This document shows, in pieces, positions 11,849 through 38,239 of a stretch of DNA of 64,000 nt. The notes beneath the pieces were generated by a model. That model did not search any database and was not told the DNA's origin. It was given only the letters and a program-made list of their open reading frames with translations. The stretch covers positions 34,552 to 98,551 of the forward strand of contig JAUYEG010000091.1 of assembly GCA_030691505.1 (NCBI GenBank), written 5' to 3'. Made by a program: the position numbers and the translations under genes. This stretch comes from Bacillota bacterium. GTDB taxonomy: Bacteria; Bacillota; Sulfobacillia; JAUYEG01. The stretch's first letter is position 1. Every line of letters begins with the position of its first letter.

Positions 11849-11943
11849 CACGCCGGTCGGGTTCGGTCGGGCCGGTCGGGAAATCCCGGCCAGACAAGAA
11901 GCTCTTATATAAGGACCGTCGAACCACCGACACTATCTGAGAA

Positions 11944-11972
11944 GGTACAATAAGAATTGCATTATGTATAGT
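11944..11972 (+). promoter_or_regulatory. Candidate sigma-A promoter of the flagellar operon leader
   Basis: GGTACA-N17-TATAGT in the only AT-rich stretch of the region. It would place the TSS a few nt before the riboswitch. Confidence 0.35.
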
Positions 11973-11975
11973 CGG

Positions 11976-12064
11976 GACTCCCGACAAAGGCAAACCCATC
12001 GCGAGGTGGGGACGCAAAGCCAGGGGTCTGGCCCTGCCAGATAGCCCGGTTGCCGAAGGAGACT
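11976..12064 (+). promoter_or_regulatory. c-di-GMP-I (GEMM-I) riboswitch aptamer
   Basis: AAAGGCAAACC-CATC-GCGA-GGTGG-GGACGCAAAGCC reproduces the conserved GGCAAACC...GNRA tetraloop...GACGCAAAGCC core of GEMM-I (compare Vc2 GGCAAACCAUUCGAAAGAGUGGGACGCAAAGCC). A second hairpin TCTGGC-CCT-GCCAGA flanked by GGGG/CCC follows. Confidence 0.85.
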
Positions 12065-12097
12065 TTGCTTTTCCCGGGGGGCGCACGTCCCTCCAGG

Positions 12098-12140
12098 TCC
12101 TGTCTCCTGCGCGACCGCGGCAGGCGACAGGACTTTTCAG
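12098..12140 (+). terminator. Intrinsic terminator, the expression platform of the riboswitch
   Basis: GTCCTGTCTCCTGC-GCGACCGCG-GCAGGCGACAGGAC followed by TTTTCAGTT, ending 4 nt before the flgB SD. AGGAGAC at 12057-12063 can pair with GTCTCCT in the 5' arm as a potential antiterminator. Confidence 0.75.
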
Positions 12141-12158
12141 TTCTAGGAGGCGAGCTGC

Positions 12159-12596
12159 GTGGGAATCCGCGCCCAAGGGGCAATCGACGCCCTCGACCGC
12201 GCACTCGGAAGAGCGTCGCTCCGCGGTGAGCTGCTGGCCAACAACCTGGCCAACGTCAACACCCCGGGGTACAAGCGGCTGGACCTGGCCTTCGAGGACG
12301 TTCTGGCGTCCGCGTCCACATCCGGCACCGCGGGCGGGGCTGCGTCCCTAAGCTCAAACTCGCTTAACCCTGCCGTGACCAACGCGGCGCACATCGCCGG
12401 ACGGCAGGCCGCGTCCGCCGACCCCGAGGTGATCCGCGCCGCGGGCACCTCGCTGCGCAGCGACGGCAACAACGTTGACATAGAGTCCGAGATGGCCCTG
12501 CTTGCCGAGAACAGCCTCTACTATCAGGCCCTGGTCCGCGAGATGAACAACCGCCTGTCCGCGCTGCGGCTGGCGATCACCGAGGGGAGGCGCTAG
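12159..12596 (+). CDS. flgB: Flagellar basal-body rod protein FlgB
   Basis: LLANNLANVNTPGYKR motif. GTG start 8 nt after TAGGAGG. First gene of the cluster. Confidence 0.9.
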   Translation: MGIRAQGAIDALDRALGRASLRGELLANNLANVNTPGYKRLDLAFEDVLASASTSGTAGGAASLSSNSLNPAVTNAAHIAGRQAASADPEVIRAAGTSLRSDGNNVDIESEMALLAENSLYYQALVREMNNRLSALRLAITEGRR

Positions 12597-12599
12597 GCG

Positions 12600-13052
12600 A
12601 TGCGCATCTTCCACGCCCTTGAGGTGGCCGCCTCCGGGCTGACGTGCGAGCGGCTGCGCCTGGACGTCATCGCCAACAACCTGGCCAACGTCAACACGAC
12701 CCGTACCCCGGAAGGGGGGCCGTACGCCCGCCAGATGGCCGTCGTGGCGTCGCGGCCGGCTGACCAGGCCAGCGGGTTTGGTTCCAGTGGTTTCGGCGGC
12801 TCGACGGCGCCCGCGGTAGGCAACGGTGTGCGGGTGGTGGGAATAGCCCGCGACCTGACCCCTCCGGTGCTGAAATATGACCCTGCCCACCCGGACGCCG
12901 ACGCGTCGGGGTATGTCGCCCTTCCCAACGTCAATGTCGTGACCGAGATGGTTGACCTGATCAGCGCGACACGGGCCTATGAAGCCAACGTCACAGCCCT
13001 TAACGCAATCAAGCAGATGATGCTCAAGGCGCTCGAGATCGGTCGGGCATAG
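12600..13052 (+). CDS. flgC: Flagellar basal-body rod protein FlgC
   Basis: MRIFHALEVAASGLTCERLRLDVIANNLANVNTTRT... and C-terminal VNVVTEMVDLISATRAYEAN. Confidence 0.93.
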   Translation: MRIFHALEVAASGLTCERLRLDVIANNLANVNTTRTPEGGPYARQMAVVASRPADQASGFGSSGFGGSTAPAVGNGVRVVGIARDLTPPVLKYDPAHPDADASGYVALPNVNVVTEMVDLISATRAYEANVTALNAIKQMMLKALEIGRA

Positions 13053-13069
13053 CAGGAGGCAGGTACGAA

Positions 13070-13393
13070 GTGCGCATCAACCCCGTCGGGATCGCCGGCG
13101 TCTGGCAGCCGCCGCAACTGACGCCAAAAGGCGTCGGCGGCGCTCCCGCGCCGGCGGCTCCGGCGTCAGCGGGGCCGACCTTCCAAAATTCGCTGACCCA
13201 GGCGCTGCGGCAGGTCAACGAGCTGCAGCTGCAGGCCGAGGATCTCGCCCAGGCCCTTGCCGCGGGCCAGGCTCAGGACCTGCACCAGGTGATGCTGGCG
13301 GCCGAGAAGGCCAACCTCTCGCTGCAGTTCACGCTGCAGATCCGCAACAAGGTCATTGAGGCTTATCAGGAGATCATGCGCATCCAGGTCTAG
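13070..13393 (+). CDS. fliE: Flagellar hook-basal body complex protein FliE
   Basis: FQNSLTQALRQVNELQ...LHQVMLAAEKANLSLQFTLQIRNKVIEAYQEIMRIQV. Confidence 0.9.
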   Translation: MRINPVGIAGVWQPPQLTPKGVGGAPAPAAPASAGPTFQNSLTQALRQVNELQLQAEDLAQALAAGQAQDLHQVMLAAEKANLSLQFTLQIRNKVIEAYQEIMRIQV

Positions 13394-13445
13394 CCCCAGG
13401 TCGAGCCGGCAAAGAAACGCTCACAACCACGAGGAGGATGTGCGG

Positions 13446-14966
13446 GTGAAGGCAAGTGAGGCGCTAGCGCAGGCACAGGCCCTGTGGCGGGGCATGGACC
13501 CACGCCGCCGGACAGTGCTGGTCGCCGCATCGGTCACGGTGCTCGCCCTTCTTGCCGGCTGGACCTATCTCGCCGGCAAGCCCGAGTTCGTGGTGCTGTA
13601 CAACCGGCTTGAGGCGAGGGACGCGTCGTCGATCGTCAGCGTTTTGGAGGGCAAGGGCACAGCGTACCGCCTCGCCGACGGGGGAGCGACCATCCTCGTG
13701 CCCTCGCGCGACGTGCACGGCACCCGGCTGGCGCTGGCCGGCGAAGGGCTGCCGAGCCTCGGCTCGCCAGGCTTCGAGTTGCTCGAGGGCATCTCGATCG
13801 GGGCAACCGAATTTGAGCGGCGCGCGGCCTACGTGCGCGCCCTTTCCGGTGAACTGGCGCGGACCATCGGCCAGATCTCGGAGGTGGAATCGGCTCGGGT
13901 CCACGTCGTCCAGCCGGAACAGAGCCTGTTTCTGTCGCAGGCGCGCCCCACCACGGCCGCGGTCTTCATCAAGCACCGCCCCGGGGCCAAGCTGGACCCG
14001 GAGCAGGTGCGCGGCATCGTTCACCTCGTCGCCCGCAGCGTAGAGGGCCTGGGGCCGGAGTCGGTGACGGTTATCGACGAGGGCGGCAGGGTCCTTTCGT
14101 CCGCGGATTCGGCGTCGGCGTCGTCCGGCGCCGGCCGGGCGGCGGGCAACCTTGAGGCCAGCCGCCAAGCCTCCCTGGAGATGGAGAGCGGCCTCCAGCG
14201 GCTGCTGGAGCAGGTACTCGGGCCGGGCAACGTCGCCGCGCGGGTCGCCGCCGAGCTGTCCTTTGACGAGTCCGTGATCAACCGGCGCGTGTTTGAGCCG
14301 CCCGGAGACTCACAGGGGCTGGTCCGCAGCGTGCAGGAGCTGACCGAGTACTTCCGCGGCACCGACGGCGCGGACGGGGGCGTGGCCGGCACCCAGAGCA
14401 ACGTGCCGATCTACGGGTCCGGGTCTGCCGGCGGGACGGCCTCGGAGCGCGAGCGGACCGAGACGGTAAAGAACTTCGAGCTCAATGAGATCACCGAACA
14501 CACCGTCGTCGCCCCGGGGGCCATGAAGCGGCTGTCGGTCTCAGTCGTCGTAAACAAGGAGCTGGCCGCGGCAGACCTCCAGCGCCTTGAGAGGCTGGTC
14601 AGCGCGGCGGTCGGCAGCGACGCGGGGCGCAACGACCAGATCGTGGTCACGGGGATGCCCTTTAACACCGAGCTGGCTCAGACCGTTTTGGCCGACATGG
14701 CCGCGCAGCGCCGCAACCAGTTGATCGCCATCGGTTCGGGCGCCGGGCTGGCTCTTTTGATGGGCATTGTGCTGCTGCTGCGGTCGCGCCGCGCCGCCTC
14801 CCGCCGGGCCCGCCAGCAGCCGGTGCTGGTGGCTGAAGAGGTCGGTCCGCAACTGGCCGAGGCCGATATCGCGCGGATACGCACCCAGGACGAACTGGCG
14901 CGGCTGTTCAGGCAAAAGCCTCAGGCCGCCGCACAGGTCATACGCTCCTGGCTGGTTGAGGAGTGA
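13446..14966 (+). CDS. fliF: Flagellar MS-ring protein FliF
   Basis: N-terminal TM, YscJ/FliF-type periplasmic region (VLYNRLEARDASSIVSVLEGKG...), C-terminal TM and FliG-binding tail. GTG at 13446 lies 8 nt after GAGGAGG. Confidence 0.92.
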   Translation: MKASEALAQAQALWRGMDPRRRTVLVAASVTVLALLAGWTYLAGKPEFVVLYNRLEARDASSIVSVLEGKGTAYRLADGGATILVPSRDVHGTRLALAGEGLPSLGSPGFELLEGISIGATEFERRAAYVRALSGELARTIGQISEVESARVHVVQPEQSLFLSQARPTTAAVFIKHRPGAKLDPEQVRGIVHLVARSVEGLGPESVTVIDEGGRVLSSADSASASSGAGRAAGNLEASRQASLEMESGLQRLLEQVLGPGNVAARVAAELSFDESVINRRVFEPPGDSQGLVRSVQELTEYFRGTDGADGGVAGTQSNVPIYGSGSAGGTASERERTETVKNFELNEITEHTVVAPGAMKRLSVSVVVNKELAAADLQRLERLVSAAVGSDAGRNDQIVVTGMPFNTELAQTVLADMAAQRRNQLIAIGSGAGLALLMGIVLLLRSRRAASRRARQQPVLVAEEVGPQLAEADIARIRTQDELARLFRQKPQAAAQVIRSWLVEE

Positions 14967-16006
14967 ACGGCGCCGTGTCCCTGCAAATCAGACCCGCGCG
15001 TCGTCAGAACCTCAACGGCAGGCAGAAAGCCGCGGCGCTGCTCATCGCCCTCGGTTCCGACACCTCGGCGACAGTCTTCAGGCATTTGCAGCAGGACGAG
15101 ATCGAGCAGCTCACGCTGGAGATCGCGGCGACGCGCTCCGTGGACGTCGAGACCCGCAACAAGGTCCTGGAGGAGTTTCACCAGATGTGTGTCGCCCAAG
15201 AGTACCTGAGCCAAGGCGGCCTGGAATACGCCCGGCAGGTGCTGTACGAGGCACTCGGCCCCGAGCGCACCAAGACGATACTCAACCAGTTGACCTCGAC
15301 GCTGCAGGTGCGGCCGTTCGATTTCCTGCGCCGCACGGATGCCGCGCAACTCTTGAGCTTTATCCGTAACGAGCACCCGCAGACCATCGCGCTCATCCTC
15401 GCCTATCTCGAGCCGTCGCAGAGCGCCGTGGTTCTCGCGTCGCTGCCGCAGGACCTGCAGACCGAGGTCACCCGGCGCATCGCGGTCATGGACCGCACGT
15501 CGCCGGACGTCGTGCGCGAGGTCGAGCGGGTGCTGGAACGCAAGGTCGCCTCGGTGGCGTCGGAGGACTACACGGCCGCCGGCGGGCTTGACACGTGCGT
15601 CGCGATGCTCAACCGCGTCGACCGGGGGACCGAGAAGCAGATCATCGAGGCCCTGCTCGAGCAGGACCCCGAACTTGCGGAGGAGATCCGCAAGCGGATG
15701 TTTGTCTTCGAGGACCTCATCAATATCGACGACCGCTACATGCAGCGGGTGCTGCGCGACGTCGACCTCAACAAGGACCTCCCGCTGGCCCTCAAAGTCG
15801 CGTCGGAGGAAGTCACGGCAAAGATCCAGCGCAACCTGTCCAAGCGCGCGGTGGAGAACCTCGTCGAGGCGATCGAGTATCTCGGCCCGGTCCGGCTGCG
15901 CCAAGTCGAGGAAGCGCAGCAGAAGATCGTCAACCTCGTTCGCCGCCTGGAGGAAGAGGGCGAGATCGTGACGGCCCGCGGCAGCGGAGGCGAGCTCATT
16001 GTCTAG
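14963..16006 (+). CDS. fliG: Flagellar motor switch protein FliG
   Basis: GRQKAAALLIALGSD...EIEQLTLEIA...EHPQTIALILAYL...MFVFEDL. Confidence 0.93.
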   Translation: MNGAVSLQIRPARRQNLNGRQKAAALLIALGSDTSATVFRHLQQDEIEQLTLEIAATRSVDVETRNKVLEEFHQMCVAQEYLSQGGLEYARQVLYEALGPERTKTILNQLTSTLQVRPFDFLRRTDAAQLLSFIRNEHPQTIALILAYLEPSQSAVVLASLPQDLQTEVTRRIAVMDRTSPDVVREVERVLERKVASVASEDYTAAGGLDTCVAMLNRVDRGTEKQIIEALLEQDPELAEEIRKRMFVFEDLINIDDRYMQRVLRDVDLNKDLPLALKVASEEVTAKIQRNLSKRAVENLVEAIEYLGPVRLRQVEEAQQKIVNLVRRLEEEGEIVTARGSGGELIV

Positions 16007-16832
16007 AGTGGGCGGAAACCTCCTCAAGCCGAGCCTCTACCAGGCAGGCGGGCCCTGTCTGGTCAGCGGGCTGTTGCGATGCGATGGCTGGCGGCAGGCT
16101 GGGGCAGACGGTGCCTCTGGGCTCGGGACCCGGCCTGGCACCGGGTATGGCGCAGGCGCGGACGCCGGCATCGGAATGGATGCCGCAGCGGATGCCAATT
16201 TTGCTGCCGGAACCGAAATACGCGAGCAACTGCGGGCCGCGGCCGAGGCAGTCGAGGCCGCCGGGCGGCGGGCCGCCGAGATCGTCGCCGGTGCCGAGAG
16301 CCGCGCCGCCACGATTGCCGCCGACGCGGCCAGGCAGGCCGAGGAGCGGGCGCTCGGCGAGCTTCAGGACGAGATCGCCAGGACGCGCGAGCGGGCGGCC
16401 GCCGAGGCCGGGGAAATCGTTGCCGCGGCACGGGCCCAATCCCAGATGGCTCTGGCCGCCGTCGAGCGGGAGGCCATCGTGCTGGCGCTCGAGATCGCGC
16501 GCAAGGTCGTGGCGAGCGAACTGCAGGTTTCGCCCGAAGTGGTGCTGGCTGTGGCGGGAGAGGCTCTGGGCCGGCTTCCGAACGGAGTCGCCGTGGCGGC
16601 CCTGCGGGTCAGCCCGGAGGACCTGCAGCGGGCCCTGGCGGGCCGCGAGCGCCTCAAGAACATCTCCGGCGACCTGCGTGAACTCGAGGTGATTTCCCAT
16701 CCGCAGGTGGCGCGGGGTGGCTGCATCGTCGAAACTCCTGCCGGCGACGTCGACGCCCGCATCGAGACCAGGTTTGGGAAGCTCGAGCAGGCGCTGCTGC
16801 CGGACGCTGAGGACGGGGAGGGCGGAGCATGA
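15999..16832 (+). CDS. fliH: Flagellar assembly protein FliH
   Basis: Ala/Glu-rich coiled coil followed by the FliH C-terminal domain (ALEIARKVV...GGCIVETPAGDVDARIETRF). The 5' end is uncertain (TTG 15999 or GTG 16008). Confidence 0.8.
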   Translation: MSRVGGNLLKPSLYQAGGPCLVSGLLRCDGWRQAGADGASGLGTRPGTGYGAGADAGIGMDAAADANFAAGTEIREQLRAAAEAVEAAGRRAAEIVAGAESRAATIAADAARQAEERALGELQDEIARTRERAAAEAGEIVAAARAQSQMALAAVEREAIVLALEIARKVVASELQVSPEVVLAVAGEALGRLPNGVAVAALRVSPEDLQRALAGRERLKNISGDLRELEVISHPQVARGGCIVETPAGDVDARIETRFGKLEQALLPDAEDGEGGA

Positions 16833-18262
16833 GCGCGGAGATCAGCGTGGCCGTCTCGCCGGCCGAGGCCCTGCGCGCCGCAGGTTCGCGGTTGCGCGGC
16901 GCCGAGCCGCTAAGTATGCGCGGGCGCGTGTGCCAGGTTGTGGGGCTGACCGTGGGCGCTCATGGGCCCGCGTCGGCGATCGGGGAGCTATGCTATCTCG
17001 TGCCGCACCGTGCCAGGCCGGGGATTCCGGCCGAGGTCGTGGGTTTCCGCGACAACCTGACGCTGCTCATGCCATTTGGCGAGCTGCAGGGCGTAGGACC
17101 GGGATGCGAGGTCGTCGTGTCCGGGCACGGTTTCCGCGTCGGCGTGGGACAGGGTTTGCTTGGGCGGGTTCTCGATGGGCTGGGCCGGCCGATCGACGGG
17201 CAGGGTCCAGTCGTTGCTCAGGCGCGGCGCGCCACCAGGGCCGCGGCCCCGGACCCGCTGCAACGCCCCGTCATTGACGAGGCCCTGCCGGTGGGCGTGC
17301 GCGCCCTGGACGGCTTCCTTACCTGCGGCAAGGGCCAGCGCATGGGGATCTTCTCCGGCAGCGGGGTCGGCAAGAGCACGTTGCTCGGGATGGTGGCGCG
17401 CAACACCGCCGCCGACGTCAGCGTTATCGCCCTCGTTGGCGAACGCGGGCGCGAAGTGCGTGAGTTTCTCGACCGGGATCTGGGCCCGGCGGGTCTGGCC
17501 CGGTCGGTGGTTGTGGTCGCCACGTCCGATCAGCCGGCGTTGGTACGCATCCAGGCGGCATACACGGCGACGACGATCGCTGAGTTTTTCCGGGACCGCG
17601 GTGCGGACGTGGTGCTTCTGATGGACTCGATCACGCGTTTCGCCATGGCCCTCCGCGAAGTCGGCCTGGCCATCGGGGAGCCGCCGGCGACTCGCGGATA
17701 CACCCCCTCTGTCTTTGCCACGCTGCCCAAGCTGCTCGAACGTGCCGGGAGGGCTGCGGCAGGCTCCGTGACCGGCTTCTACACCGTCCTCATCGACGGC
17801 GATGACCTGACCGAGCCGGTCACCGATGCGATGCGCGGGCTCCTTGACGGTCATGTGCTCCTGAGCCGCGAACTCGCCGCCCGCGGGCAGTACCCCGCAG
17901 TCGATATCCTCGGCAGCGTGAGCCGCCTGATGCCGGCGATCACCGACCGGCAGCAGCAGGCCTCGGCGGCGCGGCTGCGCGCCATGCTCGCGGTGTACCG
18001 CGACGCTCAGGACCTCATCAGCGTCGGGGCCTACCGGCCGGGCAGCAACCCGGAGATCGACGCCGCGCGGGGCGCGGTGCCCCAGATTCTGGCCTTCCTG
18101 CGCCAGGACGTTGAAGAGGCCGCGGATTTCGCGGCCACCCGGGAGCGGCTGCTTGCCCTATCGATGTCTCAGGCCGAGCCTCACACTCAGCGGGGAGCCG
18201 CCAGCGCCGTGGCCCCGGGCCAGCTTGCCGCGGTCGCATCCACCACCGGAGGTCGGCTCTGA
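16829..18262 (+). CDS. fliI: Flagellum-specific ATP synthase FliI
   Basis: Walker A GSGVGKST, LLMDSITRFA, and the RGYTPSVF motif of T3SS ATPases. Confidence 0.95.
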   Translation: MSAEISVAVSPAEALRAAGSRLRGAEPLSMRGRVCQVVGLTVGAHGPASAIGELCYLVPHRARPGIPAEVVGFRDNLTLLMPFGELQGVGPGCEVVVSGHGFRVGVGQGLLGRVLDGLGRPIDGQGPVVAQARRATRAAAPDPLQRPVIDEALPVGVRALDGFLTCGKGQRMGIFSGSGVGKSTLLGMVARNTAADVSVIALVGERGREVREFLDRDLGPAGLARSVVVVATSDQPALVRIQAAYTATTIAEFFRDRGADVVLLMDSITRFAMALREVGLAIGEPPATRGYTPSVFATLPKLLERAGRAAAGSVTGFYTVLIDGDDLTEPVTDAMRGLLDGHVLLSRELAARGQYPAVDILGSVSRLMPAITDRQQQASAARLRAMLAVYRDAQDLISVGAYRPGSNPEIDAARGAVPQILAFLRQDVEEAADFAATRERLLALSMSQAEPHTQRGAASAVAPGQLAAVASTTGGRL

Positions 18263-18744
18263 TGGCGCATTTCACATTCCGTCTTCAGCGCGTGCTGGCT
18301 CTGCGCGAGGCAGAGGCCAAGCGGGCCAAGACCGCCGCGGCGGCTGCCGCAGCGGCATCTCACGAGCTAGAGCAGCAACTCGAGCGGGCGGCGTCCGTCA
18401 TGCACAACGCGTCCGAGCCGTTCCGCGCCTCCCCCCGTGGCGCGCGCACGGCGAGCGGCGCCCAACTGGCGGCGGCGGCCGCCTATCTGGGCCGGACCCG
18501 CGACGAGGCTGCCGAGGCAGCAGTCAAGCTGCAGGAGGCATACGCGGTCCAGGCCGAGGGCATGGCCTTAGCCCGCCAGGCATGGGGGGATGCGGAGGCG
18601 CTGTCCAACCTGCGCGACCGCCGCCAGCGGATCTGGCAGAGCGACGAACTCGCCGCCCAGCAGCGTGAGATTGACGACCTGAGCGCCGCCGGCCGCGCGC
18701 GGCAGGCGGCCGGCCCGGCGGCGGCAGACGGGAGGACGGCCTGA
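18262..18744 (+). CDS. fliJ: Flagellar export protein FliJ
   Basis: MAHFTFRLQRVLALREAEAKRAK coiled-coil protein directly after fliI, with an ATGA overlap. Confidence 0.8.
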   Translation: MAHFTFRLQRVLALREAEAKRAKTAAAAAAAASHELEQQLERAASVMHNASEPFRASPRGARTASGAQLAAAAAYLGRTRDEAAEAAVKLQEAYAVQAEGMALARQAWGDAEALSNLRDRRQRIWQSDELAAQQREIDDLSAAGRARQAAGPAAADGRTA

Positions 18745-19445
18745 TGAGCAGGACTCCCGACGTGGAAAAGCAGGCCGTCGCGGCCCGCGGCGAGGACGAC
18801 AGCCCGCAGGCGTCCGAGGGCGCCGCTGAGGCCCGTGCGGGCCTCAGGTTCTCTCCGGTGCTGGTATTCGGCATCGTGTTCCTGCTCCTGGCCATCACCG
18901 CCGCGTCGCTCATAGTCTTTCACCCGACCGCCCGCACGCGTGCCACGGCTCTGGTTTCAGCTGTACTCCGGCGTAGCCCGCCCGCAGGCACCGACGCGGG
19001 CGCGGATCAGGGCACTGGCCCCGGCAGCCCGGGCACACCGGGCACACCGGGCACACCCGGTACGGGCGGGGCAGATGCGCTTGCGGCAGAGCGCGCAGCT
19101 CTTACGGCGGAGCGTGCCCGGCTGAAGGCGCTGGAGGGTGAGCTGTCCGGGCTCGAAGCGATCTTGGCGCAGCGCGAGGAGGCCCTTGCGGCGGCGCAGT
19201 CCGCGCTCGACGAGCAAATCGCCAAGCAGGCGGTCTTTACCGCGGACCTCAACCGCATGGTGCGTATCTGCCAGCAGATGCGCCCGCGCGAGGCCGCCGA
19301 GCTGATGGAGCAACTGGACGACGCGCAGGCCCTGACAATCCTGCTGCGTTTGGCCGAAACCAGCGCCGCCCAGATCCTCGGCGCGATGTCCCGCGACCGG
19401 GCGGCGCAGCTGATCAAATTGATGGTCCCGGCGGGCGCCGGGTAA
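18744..19445 (+). CDS. YlxF/MotE-like flagellar protein (MgtE-N-type domain) with PGT repeat
   Basis: One TM, a (PGT)n linker, a coiled coil, and C-terminal MRPREAAELMEQLDDAQALTILLRLAETSAAQILGAMSRDRAAQL typical of the MgtE-intracellular-N/FlbB family. It has the same position as B. subtilis ylxF. Confidence 0.75.
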   Translation: MSRTPDVEKQAVAARGEDDSPQASEGAAEARAGLRFSPVLVFGIVFLLLAITAASLIVFHPTARTRATALVSAVLRRSPPAGTDAGADQGTGPGSPGTPGTPGTPGTGGADALAAERAALTAERARLKALEGELSGLEAILAQREEALAAAQSALDEQIAKQAVFTADLNRMVRICQQMRPREAAELMEQLDDAQALTILLRLAETSAAQILGAMSRDRAAQLIKLMVPAGAG

Positions 19446-19519
19446 AGAGCAGCCTTGCGGGTGACCGGCGCGTCGTCTGCCCCGGAACCCAGCCAGCGAG
19501 AGAAAGGAGGTCAGAAAAC

Positions 19520-21709
19520 ATGAATGAGACGACAATGGCGATCCCGGGTCTCGGCCTCAACCCAAACGGGTCTGCCCGTCGAGCCCTCGGGGCCGGGCGC
19601 TCAGCGCGCGGCAGTGCGGCCGCGGAGGTAACCGGTGCGGCGATGGATGCAGTGGTCTTCGAGGCCCAGCTGCAGGCCCAACTGCAGGCCCAACTGCAGG
19701 CCCAGGCCCAGTCCGGGCGGACGCCTGAGACCGTGGCTACGGGCTTGGCCGAAGTTAGGGTAGTGGCCGCCGCAGATGCGTCCGGCGTTGACGCAGGAAC
19801 GGGCGTGGGCCCAGGGGCAGGTACAGGCAGTCAGGCGGTCGAGGCATCCATCGTCCACGGAGGCCCCTCCGTCGAGCAGCGTCTCTTCGAGCTGCCCGCA
19901 GCGGACGGGAACGACGCCATGGCTCTGGAGGGTGATCGTGCCCTCACCGGTCAGGGGGGCCTGCGCAGCCGGGTTCAGACGGTGAACGTGTCCGATTCCG
20001 CACCCGCCGGCCTGGAGGCGCCGGTGGCAGAACGGCCCGCGCCCGCGGACGCCGCGGCACGGGATGCGGATGCCGCCACCGCGCCCCCGGCCTTGATGCG
20101 CGGGGCGCCGGCCGACGGCGCTGAACCTGCGGCCGTAACCTGGCCGGCAACTGCGGTCCCGGTGGACGGGCCCTCCAGTGGCGGGGTCAGAAGCCGTCAG
20201 GAAGCCTCGGAACCGGCGGACTCCGACGTCGCCACGGCCCGCGCCAGGCCCGACATCCGCGGGCTGTCCACAACCGACCCTGTGATCGGCCAGGGCAGGA
20301 CCGCTGAGCCCGGAAGCAGGCTCCATGGCGGGTGGGCAATTCGGGCGCCTCAGGCCGCACGCCAGGGCGAACGGCCGTCCACGGACGGCATCCATCCCGG
20401 ACGGCACGACCTGACGGCACTCGCAGAGGCCGACACCGATGAGGTGGTGGCCCAGGCGATCTCCAGAATGCGGGTGCCGCAATCCGCGGCAGGGGGGCGC
20501 GCCCCGGAGGTTCAGCTCCGCCCGGAGACCGCGCCGGAGGCGTCCGATCCTCGATTCCCCGCCCTGGACGCGCCAGCTGTTGACCGGCGCCCGCCCGCGG
20601 GTGTGGCCGCAGGCGGCAGTGGCCTGGTCACGGTGGAAAAGGCGGCGGCAAGCGATTCGTCGACCCGGGCTCCGGCCTGGATGCGCGGGGCTCCGGCCAG
20701 GGAGTTGGCCGCGACTAGCGGTCTGCCGAGGACGGAGCACGGCGGTCACGCCGCCGGGGCGGCGGCCGACGGCGCTGAACCTGCGGCCGTAACCTGGCCG
20801 GCAACCGCGGTCCCGGTGGACGGGCCCTCCAGTGCGCAAAGCGCAGCCGGTGAACAGTCAAAGGCCGTGTCGGTGGCAGAGGCCCGACGCGGGGCCGTAG
20901 GCACGGTGTCCGCCCTGGATACGGAGGCAAGAGAAAACGGACCGGTTCGCGGGCTTCGGCCCGGCACCCCTTCTGCGGCAGCCGGAGCCGCAAGCCGCCT
21001 GGAAGTCTCGGAGCCGGCGGACTCCGACGTCGCCACGGCCCGCGCCAGGCCGGACGGCCGCCGGCTGTCCACAGCCGCTCCTGTGCCCGGCCAGGGCAGG
21101 ACCGTTGAGCCCGGAAGCGGGCTCCACGGCGGGTGGGCAATTCGGGCGCCTCAGGCCGGACACCAGGACGGACGGCCGTCGACGGACGGGATCCATTCCG
21201 GACGGCACGACCTGACGGCGTTCACGGAGGCCGACACCGATGAGGTGGTGGCCCAGGTGATGTCCAGGATGCGCGTGCTGCAATCCGCGGCAGGCGAGCG
21301 CGTCCTGGAGGTCCAGCTCCGCCCTGAGCACCTCGGCCGGATTCTCCTGCGGATCAGCGGCCTGCCGGGGGGCGCCGTGCACGCTGCTCTGCGGGCGGAG
21401 CGCTCGGAGATCGCCGGCCTTTTGCGCGAACGCGTCGTCGAGCTGACGCAAGCCCTCTCGGAACAGGGGCTCCGCGTCGGCGCGGTAGAGGTGTCGACCC
21501 TCACCCAGGCAGGAGCCCAGCATGGCTCGGCGCTGGGTCCCGGAGGCCGTCAGGGCTGGCGTGGCGGACGCGAGGCGAGTACCGCCCGGCAGGATCCCGT
21601 TACAGAGCGCGTTGGCCTCGCAGCGTCAAATGCCGCGCTGCACCCCCACAACTGGGCGGCCCTGCTGCGTCCCGGATACGGGCCGGGGCACGTGAACGTT
21701 CTGGCCTAG
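19520..21709 (+). CDS. fliK: Flagellar hook-length control protein FliK with large internal duplication
   Basis: C-terminal Flg_hook domain (LEVQLRPEHLGRILLRI...GAVHAALRAERSEIAGLLRERVVELTQALSEQGLRVGAVEV). The long Ala/Pro/Gly-rich N-terminal ruler contains a roughly 200-aa repeat. Confidence 0.88.
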   Translation: MNETTMAIPGLGLNPNGSARRALGAGRSARGSAAAEVTGAAMDAVVFEAQLQAQLQAQLQAQAQSGRTPETVATGLAEVRVVAAADASGVDAGTGVGPGAGTGSQAVEASIVHGGPSVEQRLFELPAADGNDAMALEGDRALTGQGGLRSRVQTVNVSDSAPAGLEAPVAERPAPADAAARDADAATAPPALMRGAPADGAEPAAVTWPATAVPVDGPSSGGVRSRQEASEPADSDVATARARPDIRGLSTTDPVIGQGRTAEPGSRLHGGWAIRAPQAARQGERPSTDGIHPGRHDLTALAEADTDEVVAQAISRMRVPQSAAGGRAPEVQLRPETAPEASDPRFPALDAPAVDRRPPAGVAAGGSGLVTVEKAAASDSSTRAPAWMRGAPARELAATSGLPRTEHGGHAAGAAADGAEPAAVTWPATAVPVDGPSSAQSAAGEQSKAVSVAEARRGAVGTVSALDTEARENGPVRGLRPGTPSAAAGAASRLEVSEPADSDVATARARPDGRRLSTAAPVPGQGRTVEPGSGLHGGWAIRAPQAGHQDGRPSTDGIHSGRHDLTAFTEADTDEVVAQVMSRMRVLQSAAGERVLEVQLRPEHLGRILLRISGLPGGAVHAALRAERSEIAGLLRERVVELTQALSEQGLRVGAVEVSTLTQAGAQHGSALGPGGRQGWRGGREASTARQDPVTERVGLAASNAALHPHNWAALLRPGYGPGHVNVLA

Positions 21710-21743
21710 CGGATTCCAACAGCATCGGAGGAGGTGAACGAGC

Positions 21744-22178
21744 GTGAGTACGACCTACGGGGTTTCCGGGACAGGAACGAGCGTGGCCGCAAGCGTTCCG
21801 GCCAGGCAGCCCGGCGACGTCGATAAGCAGCAGTTCCTTAAGCTGCTGGTGACCCAGCTGAGCATGCAGGACCCGCTGAAGCCGATGACCGACCACGCCT
21901 ACATCGCCCAGCTGGCGCAGTTCTCCAGCCTGGAGCAGATGTCCCAGATGAACTCCGAGATGTCCGCCCTGCGGATGTCGCTTGAGAACGGGCAGATGAG
22001 GCAGACGGCACTCGGCGCGCTGAGTCTGCTCGGGGCCCAGGCCACCGTGCGTGGGACCGGCGACCGCAGCCTGACCGGGACGATCGAGGCTGTGAAGCTG
22101 CTGGGCACGACAATCCTGCTGCGCATGGCCGGCGAGGAGTTCACGCTGGATCAACTGCAGGAGGTTACAAGGCAGTGA
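21744..22178 (+). CDS. flgD: Flagellar hook-capping/assembly protein FlgD
   Basis: [40 protein letters not shown]. Confidence 0.9.
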
Positions 22179-22564
22179 GCGGCGCGGGTCTGGGCGGTAC
22201 GCTGCGGCCCATCGGTCCGCCAGGACGCCCGGAGATCCGGACGCCTGCCCCAGGAGCCACTGGGGCCCAGCGGGGTGGCTTTGCGGACTTCGCGGCCGTG
22301 CTGCGAGCGGAGGTCGAGGGGGTCAAGTTCTCCCAGCATGCGCAACAGCGCCTGCAATCACGCGGGCTTACCCTCAGCGACGCCGCGAGCGCCAGGCTCA
22401 ACGGGGCTCTGGGCACGCTGGCCCGCAAGGGCGGGCGGACCTCGCTGGTGTTGCTTGACGATCTGGCACTCGTGGTCAGCGTCACCAACCGCACGGTGAT
22501 CACCGCTGTGCCAGCTCCCGATGAGGCGGTGTTCACGAACATCGACAGCGCCATCAGGGCGTAG
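22175..22564 (+). CDS. Flagellar operon protein (TIGR02530-like, between flgD and flgE)
   Basis: [18 protein letters not shown]...[28 protein letters not shown] matches my memory of this small conserved family, as does the position. Confidence 0.65.
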
Positions 22565-22645
22565 CAGAGAGGGCCGGACCTCGCAGGAGGGGGCCCCGGC
22601 CGGCGCGGACGGCGACCGGCCAACAAGAAGGGGGTCTAGCAAGAG

Positions 22646-23869
22646 ATGATGCGGTCCATGTTTTCCGGAGTATCCGGACTGCGCAACCATCAGGTGCGCA
22701 TGGACGTCATTGGAAACAACATCGCCAACGTCAACACCGTTGGCTTCAAGGCCGGGCGCGTGACCTTCCAGGAGGTCTTCAGCCAGGTCATCCGGGGGAC
22801 TTCCCCGCCGGACGACGAACTCGGCGGGACCAACCCGCAGCAGATTGGCCTGGGCATGGCCGTTTCCAGCATCGACACGCTGTTCACCCAGGGCAATCTG
22901 CAGATGACGGACAAGATGACCGACCTGGCCATTCAGGGCAACGGGTTCTTCGTGCTCGAGGACGGCGGGCAGTTCGCTTACACCCGCGCCGGGGCATTCG
23001 ACATCGACGGCGCCGGCTACCTGATCGACCCGGGCAGCGGCCGGCGTGTCCTGGGTTGGGCGGCTGACGCCGGTATCCTGCCGATGCGTGACGTCTCCAA
23101 CCTCGGGCCCGTCCGGATCTCGCCCGGGCAGAGCGTGCCGGCCAAGCCCACCTCGGCCCTGACATACGGTGGAAACCTCAACGCCGGTGCGGCCATCGGG
23201 GACAAGCACGTGACCTCCATAGACATCTTCGATTCACTCGGCGCCAAGCACACTCTGGTCATGACGTTTGAGAAGACCGCGGACAATCAATGGTCCTGGA
23301 CCGCCGCGGTCGGCGAAATCGTGCTGGGCGGCGCCGCCGGGACCCTGACGTTCGGACCCACCGGCGAGTTGACCGTCTCCACCGGCGGGCCGATTACGTT
23401 CGACCCCGGCAACGGCGCCGACTCGCTCAGCATCGCCCCCGATTTGGCGAACGTCAACCAGTACGTCTCCAACTCCACATGCAGCGCGGTCAGCCGCGAC
23501 GGCTACGGGGTCGGGGTGCTGGTTTCGTTCACGACCGACCCCGCCGGTACCATCACCGGCGTCTTCAGCAACGGCGTCACGTTGGCGTTGGCCCAGGTGG
23601 CAGTGGCCTCCTTCGCTAACCCCGCGGGCCTGATAAACCAGGGCGGGAGCCTGTACCGCGAGTCCAACAACTCCGGCGTGCGCCAGCTGGGCCAGGCCGG
23701 GACGGGCAACCGCGGCCAGATCGCCTCCGGCGCCCTTGAGATGTCCAATGTCGACCTGTCGCAGGAGTTCACCAACATGATCGTTACCCAGCGGGGATTC
23801 CAGGCAAACTCGAGGATCATCAGCACATCCGACGAGATGCTCCAGGAGCTCGTCAACCTGAAGCGCTGA
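22646..23869 (+). CDS. flgE: Flagellar hook protein FlgE
   Basis: MMRSMFSGVSGLRNHQVRMDVIGNNIANVNTVGFK... and C-terminal LEMSNVDLSQEFTNMIVTQRGFQANSRIISTSDEMLQELVNLKR. Confidence 0.95.
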   Translation: MMRSMFSGVSGLRNHQVRMDVIGNNIANVNTVGFKAGRVTFQEVFSQVIRGTSPPDDELGGTNPQQIGLGMAVSSIDTLFTQGNLQMTDKMTDLAIQGNGFFVLEDGGQFAYTRAGAFDIDGAGYLIDPGSGRRVLGWAADAGILPMRDVSNLGPVRISPGQSVPAKPTSALTYGGNLNAGAAIGDKHVTSIDIFDSLGAKHTLVMTFEKTADNQWSWTAAVGEIVLGGAAGTLTFGPTGELTVSTGGPITFDPGNGADSLSIAPDLANVNQYVSNSTCSAVSRDGYGVGVLVSFTTDPAGTITGVFSNGVTLALAQVAVASFANPAGLINQGGSLYRESNNSGVRQLGQAGTGNRGQIASGALEMSNVDLSQEFTNMIVTQRGFQANSRIISTSDEMLQELVNLKR

Positions 23870-23893
23870 TAGCGGTTAGCAGTCGCAATGCAG

Positions 23894-23919
23894 TGCCGCC
23901 CGGCGCGAGCCGGGCGGCA
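23894..23919 (+). other. Strong GC hairpin after flgE (no U-tract)
   Basis: TGCCGCCCGGC-GCGA-GCCGGGCGGCA: an 11-bp stem with a GNRA loop inside the operon. Confidence 0.5.
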
Positions 23920-23942
23920 TGTGGCCCGGGGGGAGGAGCACG

Positions 23943-24143
23943 GTGATCAACGTAACGAGGCTGAACGGCGGCCGGGTCGTCCTCAACGCCGAGCTCGTCG
24001 AGCTCGTCGAGGCGTTGCCGGACACGACCGTCACGCTGCAAAACGGCCACAAGTACATCGTCGGCGAGACGGTGGACGAGGTCATCGAGCGCATAATTCA
24101 TTACCGCCGGGCACTGCACGTCACCGTCCCGGCGGGGGAGTGA
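23943..24143 (+). CDS. flbD: Flagellar protein FlbD
   Basis: VINVTRLNGGRVVLNAELVELVEALPDTTVTLQNGHKYIVGETVDEVIERIIHYRR. I chose the GTG at 23943, which follows GGGAGGAG. Confidence 0.88.
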   Translation: MINVTRLNGGRVVLNAELVELVEALPDTTVTLQNGHKYIVGETVDEVIERIIHYRRALHVTVPAGE

Positions 24144-24153
24144 GGCGACCGGA

Positions 24154-25029
24154 ATGGACCAGACGACGATCATCGGCCTGGTCGCCGGCCTCATCCTCAT
24201 GCTGCTGGCTCTTGTCCTGGGCGGCACCGCCAGCGCGTTCTGGGATGTCAAATCCATCATTATCACCTTTGGCGGCACCTTCGCCGCAACGCTGATCAGC
24301 CTGCCGACGCGGCAGTTGCTCGAGGCCGGCCGCGTGATGCGCAAGGCCTTCAAGGTCAAGGACGTGCATCCGCTGGCGACCATCTCCGAACTGGTCAGGT
24401 TCGCCGAACGGGCCCGCCGCGAGGGCCTGCTTGCGCTCGAGGACGACGCCGACCAGCTCGACGACCAGTTCCTCAAGAAGGGCCTGCAGCTCGTGGTCGA
24501 CGGCTCCGACCCGGAGCTGGTGCGCGACATCCTGCAGACCGAGATCGCGTTCATCGAGGACAGGCACAAAGCCGGTGCGCAACTGTTTGACACCCTTGGC
24601 GCCCTGGCGCCGGCGTTCGGGATGATCGGGACGATCATCGGTCTGATTCAGATGTTGCGCAACCTGGACGATCCAAGCACCATCGGCAGTGGCATGGCTA
24701 CAGCCCTGCTCACCACGTTTTACGGCGCGCTGGCCGCCAACCTGATCTTTATTCCCATCGCGGGCAAGCTGCGCAACCGCAGCCAGAGCGAGATGCTCAT
24801 GAAAGAGGTCATGTTGGAGGGCATCCTCAGCGTCCAGGCTGGAGACAACCCGCGCATCGTCGAGGAAAAGCTCAAGGTATTCCTCGCCCCCAGGCTACGC
24901 CGGCCGGTCGCCAAGGGCGCCGGGGCGGGTGCCGGGGCTGTGCAGGCAGGGGCGGCGGGTGCCGTCGGTGGCTCCGCCGTGGGCACGGGCGGCGGCGCGG
25001 GCTCCACGTCCAACGGCGGGGCGGCCTAG
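24154..25029 (+). CDS. motA: Flagellar stator protein MotA with Gly/Ala-rich C-terminal tail
   Basis: Four-TM MotA/TolQ/ExbB pattern (AFGMIGTIIGLIQML...TALLTTFYGALAANLIFIPIAGKL). Confidence 0.93.
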   Translation: MDQTTIIGLVAGLILMLLALVLGGTASAFWDVKSIIITFGGTFAATLISLPTRQLLEAGRVMRKAFKVKDVHPLATISELVRFAERARREGLLALEDDADQLDDQFLKKGLQLVVDGSDPELVRDILQTEIAFIEDRHKAGAQLFDTLGALAPAFGMIGTIIGLIQMLRNLDDPSTIGSGMATALLTTFYGALAANLIFIPIAGKLRNRSQSEMLMKEVMLEGILSVQAGDNPRIVEEKLKVFLAPRLRRPVAKGAGAGAGAVQAGAAGAVGGSAVGTGGGAGSTSNGGAA

Positions 25030-25767: not shown

Positions 25768-25778
25768 GGAGGCTGCGC

Positions 25779-26213: not shown

Positions 26214-26253
26214 CCACGGCGGATTTCGTGGCCGGACACGGGAGGTGCAGGCG

Positions 26254-27632: not shown

Positions 27633-27656
27633 CCTGGCTGGTGTGGAGGTATAAGC

Positions 27657-28759: not shown

Positions 28760-28771
28760 GGGGGAACGTCC

Positions 28772-29041: not shown

Positions 29042-29052
29042 GGAGGAAACCG

Positions 29053-29898: not shown

Positions 29899-29908
29899 GT
29901 GAGAGCGC

Positions 29909-30991: not shown

Positions 30992-30997
30992 CGGCCC

Positions 30998-35057: not shown

Positions 35058-35104
35058 GACGGGCCCCGCGGGCCACCGTTCTCTGAATTTGGGGGGAATG
35101 ACTG

Positions 35105-35890: not shown

Positions 35891-35902
35891 GGGGCGTTGC
35901 CC

Positions 35903-36256: not shown

Positions 36257-36258
36257 CA

Positions 36259-37433: not shown

Positions 37434-37434
37434 G

Positions 37435-38220: not shown

Positions 38221-38239
38221 AGAGCGGAGGTAGATAATC

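What the first reader, a model, noticed from the sequence alone, without database searches (positions are those of the whole stretch)
11976..12145. c-di-GMP-I riboswitch with terminator gating the flagellar operon (flgB leader)
The leader contains the GEMM-I core almost verbatim (GGCAAACC, a stem capped by the GNRA tetraloop GCGA, GGACGCAAAGCC, then a second hairpin). A strong intrinsic terminator follows immediately (12098-12140) and ends 4 nt before the flgB SD. AGGAGAC (12057-12063), at the 3' edge of the aptamer, is complementary to GTCTCCT in the terminator 5' arm. A ligand-dependent antiterminator/terminator choice (OFF switch) is therefore plausible. This mirrors the Cd1 riboswitch upstream of flgB in Clostridioides difficile. 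Here it sits in a high-GC lineage, in front of a gene array with no other obvious terminator until after csrA, about 30 kb downstream.
Basis: partly seen in the sequence, partly recalled or inferred. Interest (0 to 1): 0.75.

Follow-up and report, generated by a model that had tools for sequence, protein, structure and literature searches.

The report
c-di-GMP riboswitch gating a flagellar operon
The leader of this flagellar gene cluster carries a genuine c-di-GMP-sensing RNA switch that most likely stops transcription when the signal is high, a correct but ordinary finding because the same arrangement is well studied in Clostridioides difficile.

Summary
Rfam finds a full-length c-di-GMP-I-clan aptamer at 11980-12058 (73.9 bits, E 1e-15). 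The best model is the sibling RF03167 ("GGC variant"), not RF01051. However, the window and all its relatives have A, not G, at the variant-defining position, and the pocket triplet is the canonical G11989/A12016/C12053. A strong hairpin (12096-12134, about -27 kcal/mol) with a U-tract ends just before the flgB Shine-Dalgarno. AGGAGAC (12057-12063) pairs with GUCUCCU (12102-12108) in the terminator's 5' arm, and the duplex extends into the P1 3' strand. Eight of ten related flgB leaders from the same uncultured high-GC lineage keep the aptamer. Five distinct leaders keep the same terminator and antiterminator design, with compensatory changes in the terminator stem. Nascent-transcript folding gives the antiterminator as the default state, and P1 costs about 5.5-7.5 kcal/mol more, which is OFF-switch logic. 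The controlled cluster contains fliA/sigD and a PilZ gene. This closely parallels Cd1 of C. difficile, so it is a new member of a known kind. Ligand binding and termination remain untested.

The parts
11927..11972 (+). Conserved AT-rich upstream motif (CGACAC ... ACAATAA-N8-TTATGTA). It is a putative promoter or operator of the flgB operon. The transcription start is unknown; one weak candidate is GGTACA(11944-49)-N17-TATAGT(11967-72).
   Evidence: The motif recurs upstream of flgB in all clade leaders, including riboswitch-less L082 and L169. The region is 42% GC against 66.7% for the window. The sigma-70 consensus scan found nothing, so its function is inferred only.
11980..12058 (+). c-di-GMP-I-clan aptamer. 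P1a is 11990-91 with 12014-15. P1b is 11995-12000 with 12005-12010, capped by GCGA. P2 is 12018-12028 with 12040-12051, with a distal stem UGGC/GCCA.
   Evidence: RF03167 at 73.9 bits, E 1.2e-15, covering the full model. Own model R1 scores 94 bits and non-clade model R2 58.8 bits. The core helices are 98.6% paired with 7 covarying pairs over 12 sequences.
11978..11983 (+). P1 5' strand in the bulged-AA register: C11978, U11979, C11980, C11981, C11982, G11983.
   Evidence: The four inner pairs hold in 7 of 7 clade sequences, and one pair runs CG/UG/UA. The Rfam register breaks in L170.
11989..11989 (+). Pocket nucleotide equivalent to Vc2 G20.
   Evidence: Read from the alignment to the Rfam consensus. 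It is G in all 15 aptamers examined.
12016..12016 (+). Pocket nucleotide equivalent to Vc2 A47. It is A here, where the RF03167 consensus has G.
   Evidence: The Rfam match line is blank at this column. It is A in all 15 aptamers.
12053..12053 (+). Pocket nucleotide equivalent to Vc2 C92.
12054..12063 (+). Switching sequence CGAAGGAGAC. It serves either as the 3' strand of P1 (12054-55 and 12058-61) or as the 5' strand of the antiterminator.
   Evidence: Duplex with 12102-12111 at -13.5 kcal/mol. CCGAAGGAGA is invariant in the five group-A leaders. P1 register.
12076..12093 (+). Middle hairpin GGGGGGC-GCAC-GUCCCUC, enclosed by the antiterminator helix.
   Evidence: Predicted in every fold. A hairpin occupies the same place in L162, L164, L081 and L166 with different sequence.
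12096..12134 (+). Intrinsic terminator hairpin. The 5' arm is 12096-12110, the loop 12111-12119 and the 3' arm 12120-12134.
   Evidence: -27 to -28 kcal/mol, z = -4.55. Over a 12-position stem, 58 of 60 cells are paired across 5 leaders, with compensatory changes at positions 5 and 6.
12102..12111 (+). Antiterminator 3' strand GUCUCCUGCG, lying inside the terminator's 5' arm.
   Evidence: The C-to-U change in L162 and L164 keeps pairing with G in both alternative partners.
12134..12144 (+). U-rich tail UUUUCAGUUCU.
   Evidence: Read directly from the sequence. Comparable tails occur in L162, L164 and L081, but the L166 tail is degenerate.
12145..12150 (+). Shine-Dalgarno AGGAGG of flgB, outside the terminator stem.
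   Evidence: Read directly from the sequence. It lies 8 nt upstream of the GTG at 12159.
12159..12596 (+). flgB, the first gene of the cluster.
   Evidence: TIGR01396 at 106.5 bits against a cutoff of 59; Pfam Flg_bb_rod.
12159..42633 (+). Co-directional flagellar cluster: flgB, flgC, fliE-K, flgD, flgE, motAB, fliL-R, flhB, flhA, flhF, a PilZ ORF, fliA, flgF, flgG, flgM, flgN, flgK, flgL, fliW and csrA.
   Evidence: Pfam and NCBIfam annotation. Whether it is a single transcript is not shown.
35105..35890 (+). FliA/WhiG-family sigma factor (SigD equivalent), downstream of the riboswitch.
   Evidence: TIGR02479 at 262 bits against a cutoff of 189.6.

Best explanation
The flgB leader is a canonical-pocket class I (GEMM-I) c-di-GMP riboswitch that works as a transcription-terminating OFF switch.

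- **Low c-di-GMP:** the segment CGAAGGAGAC (12054-12063) pairs with GUCUCCUGCG (12102-12111). This occupies the 5' arm of the terminator, so RNA polymerase reads through into flgB and the downstream flagellar genes, including fliA.
- **High c-di-GMP:** the ligand is held by G11989, A12016 and C12053 and stabilises P1 (11978-11983 with 12054-55 and 12058-61). That withholds the switching segment from the antiterminator. The 12096-12134 hairpin and its U-tract then form, and transcription stops about 15-25 nt upstream of the start codon.

What is shown: aptamer identity, the helices and their covariation, the presence and conservation of the terminator, and the shared nucleotides between P1 and the antiterminator. 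What is inferred: ligand binding, the direction of the switch, and the extent of the regulated transcript.
For: - **Aptamer identity:** Rfam clan hit at 73.9 bits, E 1.2e-15. An independent non-clade model scores the window at 58.8 bits.
- **Structure:** 98.6% of cells paired, 7 covarying pairs, 0 of 500 shuffles reach this, and slid controls give 24-44%.
- **Pocket:** G/A/C.
- **Terminator:** z = -4.55. The stem is conserved with compensatory C-G<->U-A and U-A<->C-G changes in 5 leaders.
- **Antiterminator:** the duplex is present in 5 of 5 group-A leaders at -10.6 to -16.0 kcal/mol, and it always reaches into the CCG of the P1 3' strand despite different partner sequences.
- **Energetics:** in 4 of 4 full-length leaders the nascent-transcript MFE contains the antiterminator. 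Forcing P1 costs +5.5 to +7.4 kcal/mol, which ligand binding could plausibly pay.
- **P1 register:** the register that shares GGAG with the antiterminator holds in 7 of 7 sequences with one covarying pair.
- **Conservation:** 8 of 10 clade lineages keep the aptamer in the same syntenic position.
- **Biology:** high c-di-GMP repressing motility matches the experimentally characterised Cd1 (PMC6366702, PMC5386303).
Against: - There is no experimental or transcriptomic evidence.
- The best Rfam model is the GGC-variant model, and the reason is only partly explained.
- The antiterminator is only 7+2 bp. Taken alone it is modestly better than shuffles (49/2000 for the window, up to 166/2000 for L162 and L164), and its 5' strand is invariant, so it shows no true covariation.
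- The full-length MFE fold does not reproduce the aptamer, and it forms the terminator regardless, so any switching has to be kinetic.
- The transcription start is unknown. If it lies upstream of 11971, a GUCGGG/CCCGAC hairpin would compete with P1.
- The L166 U-tract is degenerate, and three sister leaders (L168, L170, L173) use a different platform.
- No GGDEF or EAL genes lie in the window, so c-di-GMP synthesis in this organism is assumed.
Confidence: 0.82

Rival explanations
1. The aptamer is a specificity variant that senses something other than c-di-GMP, either the ligand of RF03167-type 'GGC' RNAs or c-AMP-GMP. The switch would then report a different signal.
For: RF03167 is the top-scoring clan member for the window and every clade relative, and it remains so without P1. 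The aptamer lacks the CUAA...AUG tetraloop receptor that the canonical flgB-associated aptamers carry.
Against: The variant-defining G is absent: A12016 sits where RF03167 has G. Position 20 is G, not the A typical of c-AMP-GMP binders (PMC9481103 on this pocket position). C92 is C. A model built from canonical aptamers alone finds the window at E about 3e-14.
Confidence: 0.05
2. The aptamer is real but the output differs. It could be an ON switch, it could act on translation or RNA stability, or the hairpin could be a constitutive attenuator not coupled to the aptamer.
For: The full-length MFE forms the terminator whatever the aptamer's state. Sister leaders L168 and L173 have no U-tract terminator and may pair CCUCCC with their SD. 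The antiterminator's significance in a single sequence is modest.
Against: In the window the SD (12145-12150) lies outside every predicted helix of the leader. The switching segment is shared between P1 and the antiterminator in 5 of 5 leaders. Nothing in the aptamer is complementary to the terminator's 3' arm, as an ON design would require. The terminator stem covaries.
Confidence: 0.08
3. The element is an evolutionary relic that no longer regulates anything.
For: Two related lineages have lost the aptamer. L082 has none, and L169 retains only a CUCGCUCAAGGCAAGCCC remnant. The closest genome-collection relatives L001 and L002 also have none.
Against: The window's aptamer matches the full model with every helix intact and all pocket and junction nucleotides conserved. 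Eight of ten clade lineages at 53-76% FlgB identity retain it, with compensatory changes, which indicates purifying selection.
Confidence: 0.03

Closest known systems
Cd1 (Cdi-1-3), the class I c-di-GMP riboswitch in the flgB 5' UTR of Clostridioides difficile
   Same: Both are class I aptamers in the leader of an flgB-led early flagellar operon that also encodes the flagellar sigma factor. Both have an intrinsic terminator directly after the aptamer and OFF logic. The expected terminated RNA here is about 160 nt if transcription starts near 11979, the same size as the 160-nt Cd1 product (PMC6366702, PMC5386303).
   Different: - Here the terminator ends about 10 nt before the SD. The C. difficile UTR is 498 nt, with 338 nt and an invertible 'flagellar switch' between Cd1 and flgB (PMC5386303); no such element is present here.
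- The aptamer here is a compact form with a GCGA tetraloop and no CUAA/AUG receptor.
- The host is an uncultured lineage with 66.7% GC.
- Cd1 is experimentally validated, and this element is not.
Vc2 of Vibrio cholerae, the structural archetype of c-di-GMP-I (RF01051)
   Same: It shares the two-helix architecture, the GGCAAAC / GACGCAAAGC junction sequences and the pocket G20/A47/C92 (Vc2 numbering from my own knowledge of the published crystal structures).
   Different: The window has a shorter P2 without the tetraloop-receptor module. Its expression platform is a terminator. The gene context is also different.
c-di-GMP-I-GGC variant (RF03167)
   Same: This is the best-scoring Rfam model (73.9 bits). 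It shares the compact receptor-less P2 and the cacgaa...cgaag P1.
   Different: The defining G at the A47 position is absent from the window and from all 14 relatives examined. The definition of the variant comes from my own recollection of Weinberg et al. 2017 (PNAS 114:E2077), which was not readable here, together with the Rfam consensus shown.
Other flgB-leader c-di-GMP-I aptamers found here (L003 Carboxydocellales, L027 Neobacillus bataviensis, L086, L094, L100, L130, L148)
   Same: All have an aptamer upstream of flgB with G20/A47. C92 could be read as C in all of them except L027, where it could not be parsed.
   Different: These have a GAAA (L100: UAAA) tetraloop and a longer P2, which in most carries a CUAA...AUG-type receptor. 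Their platforms were not analysed. They are only 36-47% identical in FlgB to the window.

Membership tests
c-di-GMP-I riboswitch (GEMM-I; Rfam clan CL00126, RF01051) | A covariance-model score above the curated threshold. | tested here: met
   RF03167 scores 73.9 bits against 59, and one further clan member also reached its own gathering score. The RF01051 score itself is hidden by clan competition.
c-di-GMP-I riboswitch (GEMM-I; Rfam clan CL00126, RF01051) | Helices P1a/P1b and P2 supported by covariation. | tested here: met
   Of 18 core pairs, 98.6% of cells are paired and 7 pairs change on both sides. 0 of 500 shuffles reach this, and slid controls give 24-44%.
c-di-GMP-I riboswitch (GEMM-I; Rfam clan CL00126, RF01051) | Ligand-pocket nucleotides G20, A47 and C92 (Vc2 numbering). 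| tested here: met
   G11989, A12016 and C12053.
c-di-GMP-I riboswitch (GEMM-I; Rfam clan CL00126, RF01051) | A GNRA tetraloop docking into a receptor in the other helix. | tested here: inconclusive
   A GCGA tetraloop is present at 12001-12004. The CUAA...AUG receptor seen in the GAAA-type relatives is replaced by a plain UGGC/GCCA stem. A helical receptor is possible but cannot be tested by sequence.
c-di-GMP-I riboswitch (GEMM-I; Rfam clan CL00126, RF01051) | Selective binding of c-di-GMP. | not testable with these tools
   This requires in-line probing, ITC or a gel-shift assay.
c-di-GMP-I riboswitch (GEMM-I; Rfam clan CL00126, RF01051) | Location in a 5' leader, on the sense strand, upstream of motility, membrane or environment genes. 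| tested here: met
   The aptamer is on the + strand, 101 nt upstream of the flgB start, in a 310-nt intergenic region.
c-di-GMP-I-GGC variant (RF03167) | A score above the gathering threshold. | tested here: met
   73.9 bits against 59.
c-di-GMP-I-GGC variant (RF03167) | G in place of A47, the middle letter of 'GGC'. | tested here: not met
   The window has GACGCAAAGCC where the model consensus has GACGCGAAgCc, and the match line is blank at that column. The same holds in all clade relatives. It is therefore not filed as a GGC variant.
c-AMP-GMP riboswitch (GEMM-Ib) | A at position 20. | tested here: not met
   G11989.
Transcription-terminating OFF riboswitch (Cd1-like) | An intrinsic terminator (GC-rich hairpin plus U-tract) immediately downstream of the aptamer. 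| tested here: met
   Hairpin 12096-12134 at -27 to -28 kcal/mol, z = -4.55, followed by UUUUCAGUUCU. The stem covaries. The simple consensus scanner missed it, probably because of the 9-nt loop and the internal mismatch.
Transcription-terminating OFF riboswitch (Cd1-like) | An antiterminator that is mutually exclusive with both P1 and the terminator. | tested here: met
   12054-12063 pairs with 12102-12111. The same nucleotides form the P1 3' strand. The arrangement is conserved in 5 of 5 group-A leaders, and the nascent-transcript MFE contains the antiterminator. This evidence is computational only.
Transcription-terminating OFF riboswitch (Cd1-like) | Ligand-dependent increase in terminated transcript. 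| not testable with these tools
   This requires single-round in vitro transcription, or Term-seq or northern analysis.

The most novel reading that the evidence does not exclude
The window's clade may carry a distinct compact sub-type of GEMM-I (GYGA tetraloop, no 11-nt receptor, bulged-AA P1). On this reading it is the A47 sibling or ancestor of the orphan 'GGC' variant that Rfam groups it with, and it could differ from classical aptamers in affinity or ligand range. Within a single syntenic locus, the same aptamer is joined to at least two different expression platforms: a terminator in the window's group, and a long P1 clamp with a possible SD-sequestering design in L168 and L173. It has also been lost twice (L082, L169). 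That would make the locus a natural series for studying how riboswitch platforms are exchanged and lost.
Probability: 0.1. Interest if true: 0.45.

Novelty: new member of a known kind. Interest (0 to 1): 0.25.

Why it matters
It extends the well-studied Cd1 paradigm to an uncultured, high-GC lineage known only from metagenomes. In that paradigm c-di-GMP shuts off early flagellar genes, and through fliA the late ones, at the level of transcription elongation. The nearest named relatives of this lineage, by FlhA, are Bacillota at 64% identity or less.

It also has a practical lesson for annotation. A top hit to the Rfam model of a specificity variant (RF03167) does not make a sequence that variant, so the pocket nucleotides have to be read directly.

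The PilZ gene inside the same operon suggests two layers of c-di-GMP control over motility. None of this changes current understanding of the riboswitch class.

Tried and rejected
1. **Simple scanner:** the consensus terminator/promoter scan found nothing at the leader. I rejected this as evidence of absence because direct folding shows a hairpin of about -28 kcal/mol.
2. **Alternative pairing in the full-leader MFE:** the fold pairs AAAGGCAAA (11986-94) with UUUGCUUUU (12064-72) and does not reproduce the aptamer. I rejected it as a conserved alternative because L081 and L166 lack the U-rich complement.
3. **5' hairpin competing with P1:** GUCGGG-ACU-CCCGAC (11971-11985) could compete with P1, but it occurs only in the window and L164, and it matters only if transcription starts upstream. 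This is left open.
4. **Why RF03167 outranks RF01051:** my idea that RF03167 wins only because it models P1 is partly wrong. Removing P1 costs about 19 bits, but RF03167 still ranks first.
5. **Closest genome relatives:** L001 and L002 have no aptamer even at E<=1, so they gave no comparative information.
6. **MAFFT alignment of whole leaders (A1):** it put the terminator's 3' arms out of register. I replaced it with per-sequence arm matching. The first script mis-picked the L081 arm, and one search corrected this.
7. **Energy-only terminator scan:** raw folding energy does not discriminate in 67% GC DNA, so only compact hairpins were considered.
8. **Literature:** the paper defining the GGC variant could not be read.
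9. **Promoter:** no convincing sigma-70 or sigma-28 promoter could be assigned upstream of the aptamer.

Full report
**1. The observation**

Rfam at gathering thresholds finds one c-di-GMP-clan aptamer in the window. It lies at 11980-12058 on the + strand and matches the full length of the model at 73.9 bits, E 1.2e-15.

- GGCAAACC at 11990-11997
- a 6-bp stem capped by the GCGA tetraloop at 12001-12004
- GGACGCAAAGCC at 12010-12021
- a second hairpin at 12018-12051

Downstream, a hairpin (12096-12110 paired with 12120-12134, one U.C mismatch) folds at -27 to -28 kcal/mol, with z = -4.55 and 0 of 200 shuffles as stable. It is followed by UUUUCAGUUCU. The AGGAGG Shine-Dalgarno is at 12145-12150 and the flgB GTG at 12159. 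A simple consensus scanner did not call this terminator, probably because of its 9-nt loop and internal mismatch.

**2. Gene context**

The downstream genes form a complete, co-directional flagellar cluster. It runs flgB, flgC, fliE-K, flgD, flgE, motAB, fliL-R, flhB, flhA, flhF, a PilZ-domain ORF, a FliA/WhiG sigma factor (TIGR02479, 262 bits), flgF, flgG, flgM, flgN, flgK, flgL, fliW and csrA. Flagellin, fliD and fliS follow.

Inside the cluster I found no compact hairpin plus U-tract comparable with the leader terminator:

- The simple scanner's hits are at about the frequency seen in shuffles.
- The best energy-based candidates are -15 to -21 kcal/mol and lie within coding sequence.
- A modest candidate follows csrA at about 42692-42719.

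A sigma-28-like motif upstream of flagellin suggests internal promoters.

**3. Which family**

The top Rfam model is RF03167 (c-di-GMP-I-GGC), not RF01051. One further clan member also reached its gathering score, but the tool hides it.

The RF03167 consensus has a conserved G in GACGC**G**AAgCc. The window has A there (A12016), and the match line is blank at that column. Mapping the three pocket positions (Vc2 G20/A47/C92; numbering from my own knowledge of the crystal structures) gives G11989, A12016 and C12053, which is the canonical c-di-GMP signature. Among the 15 flgB-region aptamers collected, G20 and A47 are universal. C92 could be read in 13; L083 has U there and L027 could not be parsed.

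A covariance model built only from seven aptamers of other lineages finds the window at 58.8 bits, E about 3e-14.

I first supposed that RF03167 wins because it models P1. Scanning the core without P1 lowers its score from 73.9 to 55.3 bits, but it still ranks first. P1 therefore explains about 19 bits, not the ranking. The likely remainder is the missing CUAA...AUG receptor module, which RF01051 models and this clade replaces with a plain UGGC/GCCA stem under a GYGA tetraloop. This is recorded as only partly explained.

**4. Relatives**

The lineage is poorly represented in public data.

| Search | Best relative |
|---|---|
| FlgC in species-representative genomes | 67% identity |
| FlgB in JGI metagenomes | 60% identity |
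| FlgB in the 5.8-billion-protein collection | a handful at 53-76% |
| FlhA | about eight unnamed proteins at 76-89%, then <=64% to named Bacillota |

The window is 66.7% GC. I fetched the DNA around the close FlgB relatives. The synteny of M20 peptidase, a 34-35-aa CxxC ORF, the leader, then flgB, flgC, fliE and fliF is conserved.

Eight of ten distinct lineages carry the same compact aptamer directly upstream of flgB. L082 has none. L169 retains only a remnant, CUCGCUCAAGGCAAGCCC.

Across about 160 more distant flgB/flgC loci, my model finds an aptamer upstream of flgB in seven further lineages, including Carboxydocellales and Neobacillus bataviensis. The arrangement therefore recurs sporadically.

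On 12 distinct aptamers the core helices are 98.6% paired, and 7 pairs change on both sides. 0 of 500 shuffles reach this, and slid controls give 24-44%.

**5. Expression platform**

Five distinct leaders share one design (window, L162/163, L164/165, L081/167, L166): CCGAAGGAGA[C/U/G], a middle hairpin, then a long hairpin whose 5' arm contains GUCU[C/U]CU.

- **Terminator stem:** it is paired in 58 of 60 cells over 12 positions, with fully compensatory changes at two positions (C-G<->U-A and U-A<->C-G). Four of the five have a good U-tail.
- **Antiterminator duplex:** it is -10.6 to -16.0 kcal/mol in all five. It always continues into the CCG of the P1 3' strand, although the partner sequence differs (GCG, CGG or UUGG).
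- **Limits of that evidence:** each duplex alone is only modestly better than shuffles (8 to 166 of 2000), and the 5' strand is invariant. The support is conservation, not covariation.
- **P1 register:** in the seven clade sequences, a register with A12056 and A12057 bulged has its four inner pairs intact in 7 of 7, and one pair runs C-G, U.G, U-A. That register is G11983-C12054, C11982-G12055, C11981-G12058, C11980-G12059, then U11979-A12060 and C11978-G12061. The Rfam register breaks in L170. In the bulged register, every P1 3'-strand nucleotide is also an antiterminator nucleotide.

Three sister leaders (L168, L170, L173) instead have an 8-bp helix outside P1 and a different downstream platform.

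**6. Direction of the switch**

I folded transcripts truncated just after the antiterminator's 3' strand. This is the state that exists before the terminator's 3' arm is made.

- In 4 of 4 leaders the MFE contains the antiterminator.
- Forcing P1 costs +5.5 to +7.4 kcal/mol when the RNA starts 2 nt upstream of the aptamer.
- Forcing P1 costs +6.8 to +14.9 kcal/mol with 14 nt of upstream leader.

Read-through is thus the default state, and ligand binding would have to pay for P1. This is OFF logic. These energies ignore tertiary contacts and the ligand, so this step is inference.

In the full-length RNA the terminator forms regardless, so control must be kinetic, as is usual for such switches. 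The SD lies outside all predicted helices, which argues against translational control in the window.

**7. Comparison with what is known**

Cd1 of C. difficile is a class I aptamer in the flgB 5' UTR.

- c-di-GMP causes termination and yields a 160-nt RNA.
- The ~23-kb operon includes sigD.
- A further 338 nt, containing an invertible switch, separates the termination site from flgB (PMC6366702, PMC5386303).

The window matches Cd1 in gene context, logic, the presence of fliA in the operon, and probably the size of the terminated RNA. It differs in having a compact leader with no invertible element, a receptor-less aptamer and a high-GC uncultured host. It is a new member of a known kind.

**8. 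Verdict**

My confidence in aptamer identity is very high. My confidence in a transcription-terminating OFF mechanism is about 0.8. Interest is low to moderate, because the result extends a textbook arrangement to a new lineage and gives a cautionary example about variant-model hits.

Noticed in passing
window 5812-5872 (+) and 7426-7483 (-): Two fluoride-riboswitch hits lie just above the gathering score (35.1 and 34.1 bits against 34) and flank one minus-strand gene (5985-7289, a dynamin-family GTPase). The minus-strand aptamer lies about 137 nt upstream of that gene, and its 3' end overlaps a terminator-like hairpin. The plus-strand aptamer follows mutS2, has its own hairpin with UUGUUUUG (5855-5883), and points antisense into the 3' end of the same gene. 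No crcB or eriC gene is nearby. The next plus-strand gene (to 8661) is a weak auxin-efflux-carrier-family transporter.
   Followed up: partly
window ~34330-34792 (+) (PilZ domain ~34397-34718): A PilZ-domain ORF (PF07238, E 1.7e-8) sits inside the flagellar cluster, between flhF and fliA. It is a possible second, protein-level c-di-GMP input to motility in the same operon as the riboswitch. Its start codon was not resolved, and there was no NCBIfam hit.
   Followed up: partly
window 11743-11850 (+); L082 2129-2233; L166 480-584; L169 1079-1183: A 34-35-aa ORF with two CxxC pairs (MAVWKCGTCGYEKDSRCKPGKCPECQSKGSFTKKE) is conserved immediately upstream of the flgB leader across the clade, whether or not the riboswitch is present. 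It has no Pfam family.
   Followed up: partly
window 11927-11972; same position in L082, L164, L166, L168, L169, L170, L173: A conserved AT-rich motif, CGACA(C/T) ... (G/T)CAATAA-N8-(G)TTATGT(A), lies upstream of the aptamer. It is also present in the two leaders that lack the aptamer. It matches neither the sigma-70 nor the sigma-28 consensus convincingly, so it may be a promoter or an operator of unknown type.
   Followed up: partly
L169 1417-1500; L082 2230-2480: Two lineages with the same synteny have lost the aptamer. L169 keeps CUCGCUCAAGGCAAGCCC, which looks like a decayed 5' part of the aptamer. L082 has an unrelated leader.
   Followed up: partly
L168 1295-1500, L170 1306-1500, L173 1301-1500: Sister leaders share the aptamer but have an additional helix of about 8 bp outside P1 (AACGAGUC with GGCUCGUU) and a UUCCCA-UUUG-UGGGAA hairpin. 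In L168 and L173 there is no U-tract terminator, but a CCUCCC segment could pair with the GAGGGGGG SD. The expression platform has apparently been exchanged within one locus.
   Followed up: no
L083 3745-3830 (and a weak second hit at 3651-3718): A c-di-GMP-I aptamer (66 bits) lies downstream of flgB and flgC rather than upstream. It has U at the C92-equivalent position, so it may be a specificity variant inside a flagellar operon.
   Followed up: no
window ~42843-42962: Upstream of flagellin there is a sigma-28-like motif (TAAG-N16-CCGATG). The leader contains several GGA motifs, including the SD AAGGAGGA, and lies next to fliW and csrA. This is the layout of the CsrA-FliW-flagellin partner-switch known from Bacillus subtilis (the comparison is from my own knowledge).
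   Followed up: no
window 44189-46066 (+) and 46858-48330 (+): FliD carries an inserted F5/8 type C (discoidin-like) domain. A PAS-containing sigma-54 activator lies just after fliS.
   Followed up: no
L162, L163, L165, L167 (contig starts): Four independent short-read assemblies break inside the aptamer, 66-70 nt before its 3' end. This suggests a recurrent assembly problem at the AT-rich promoter or the aptamer boundary.
   Followed up: no
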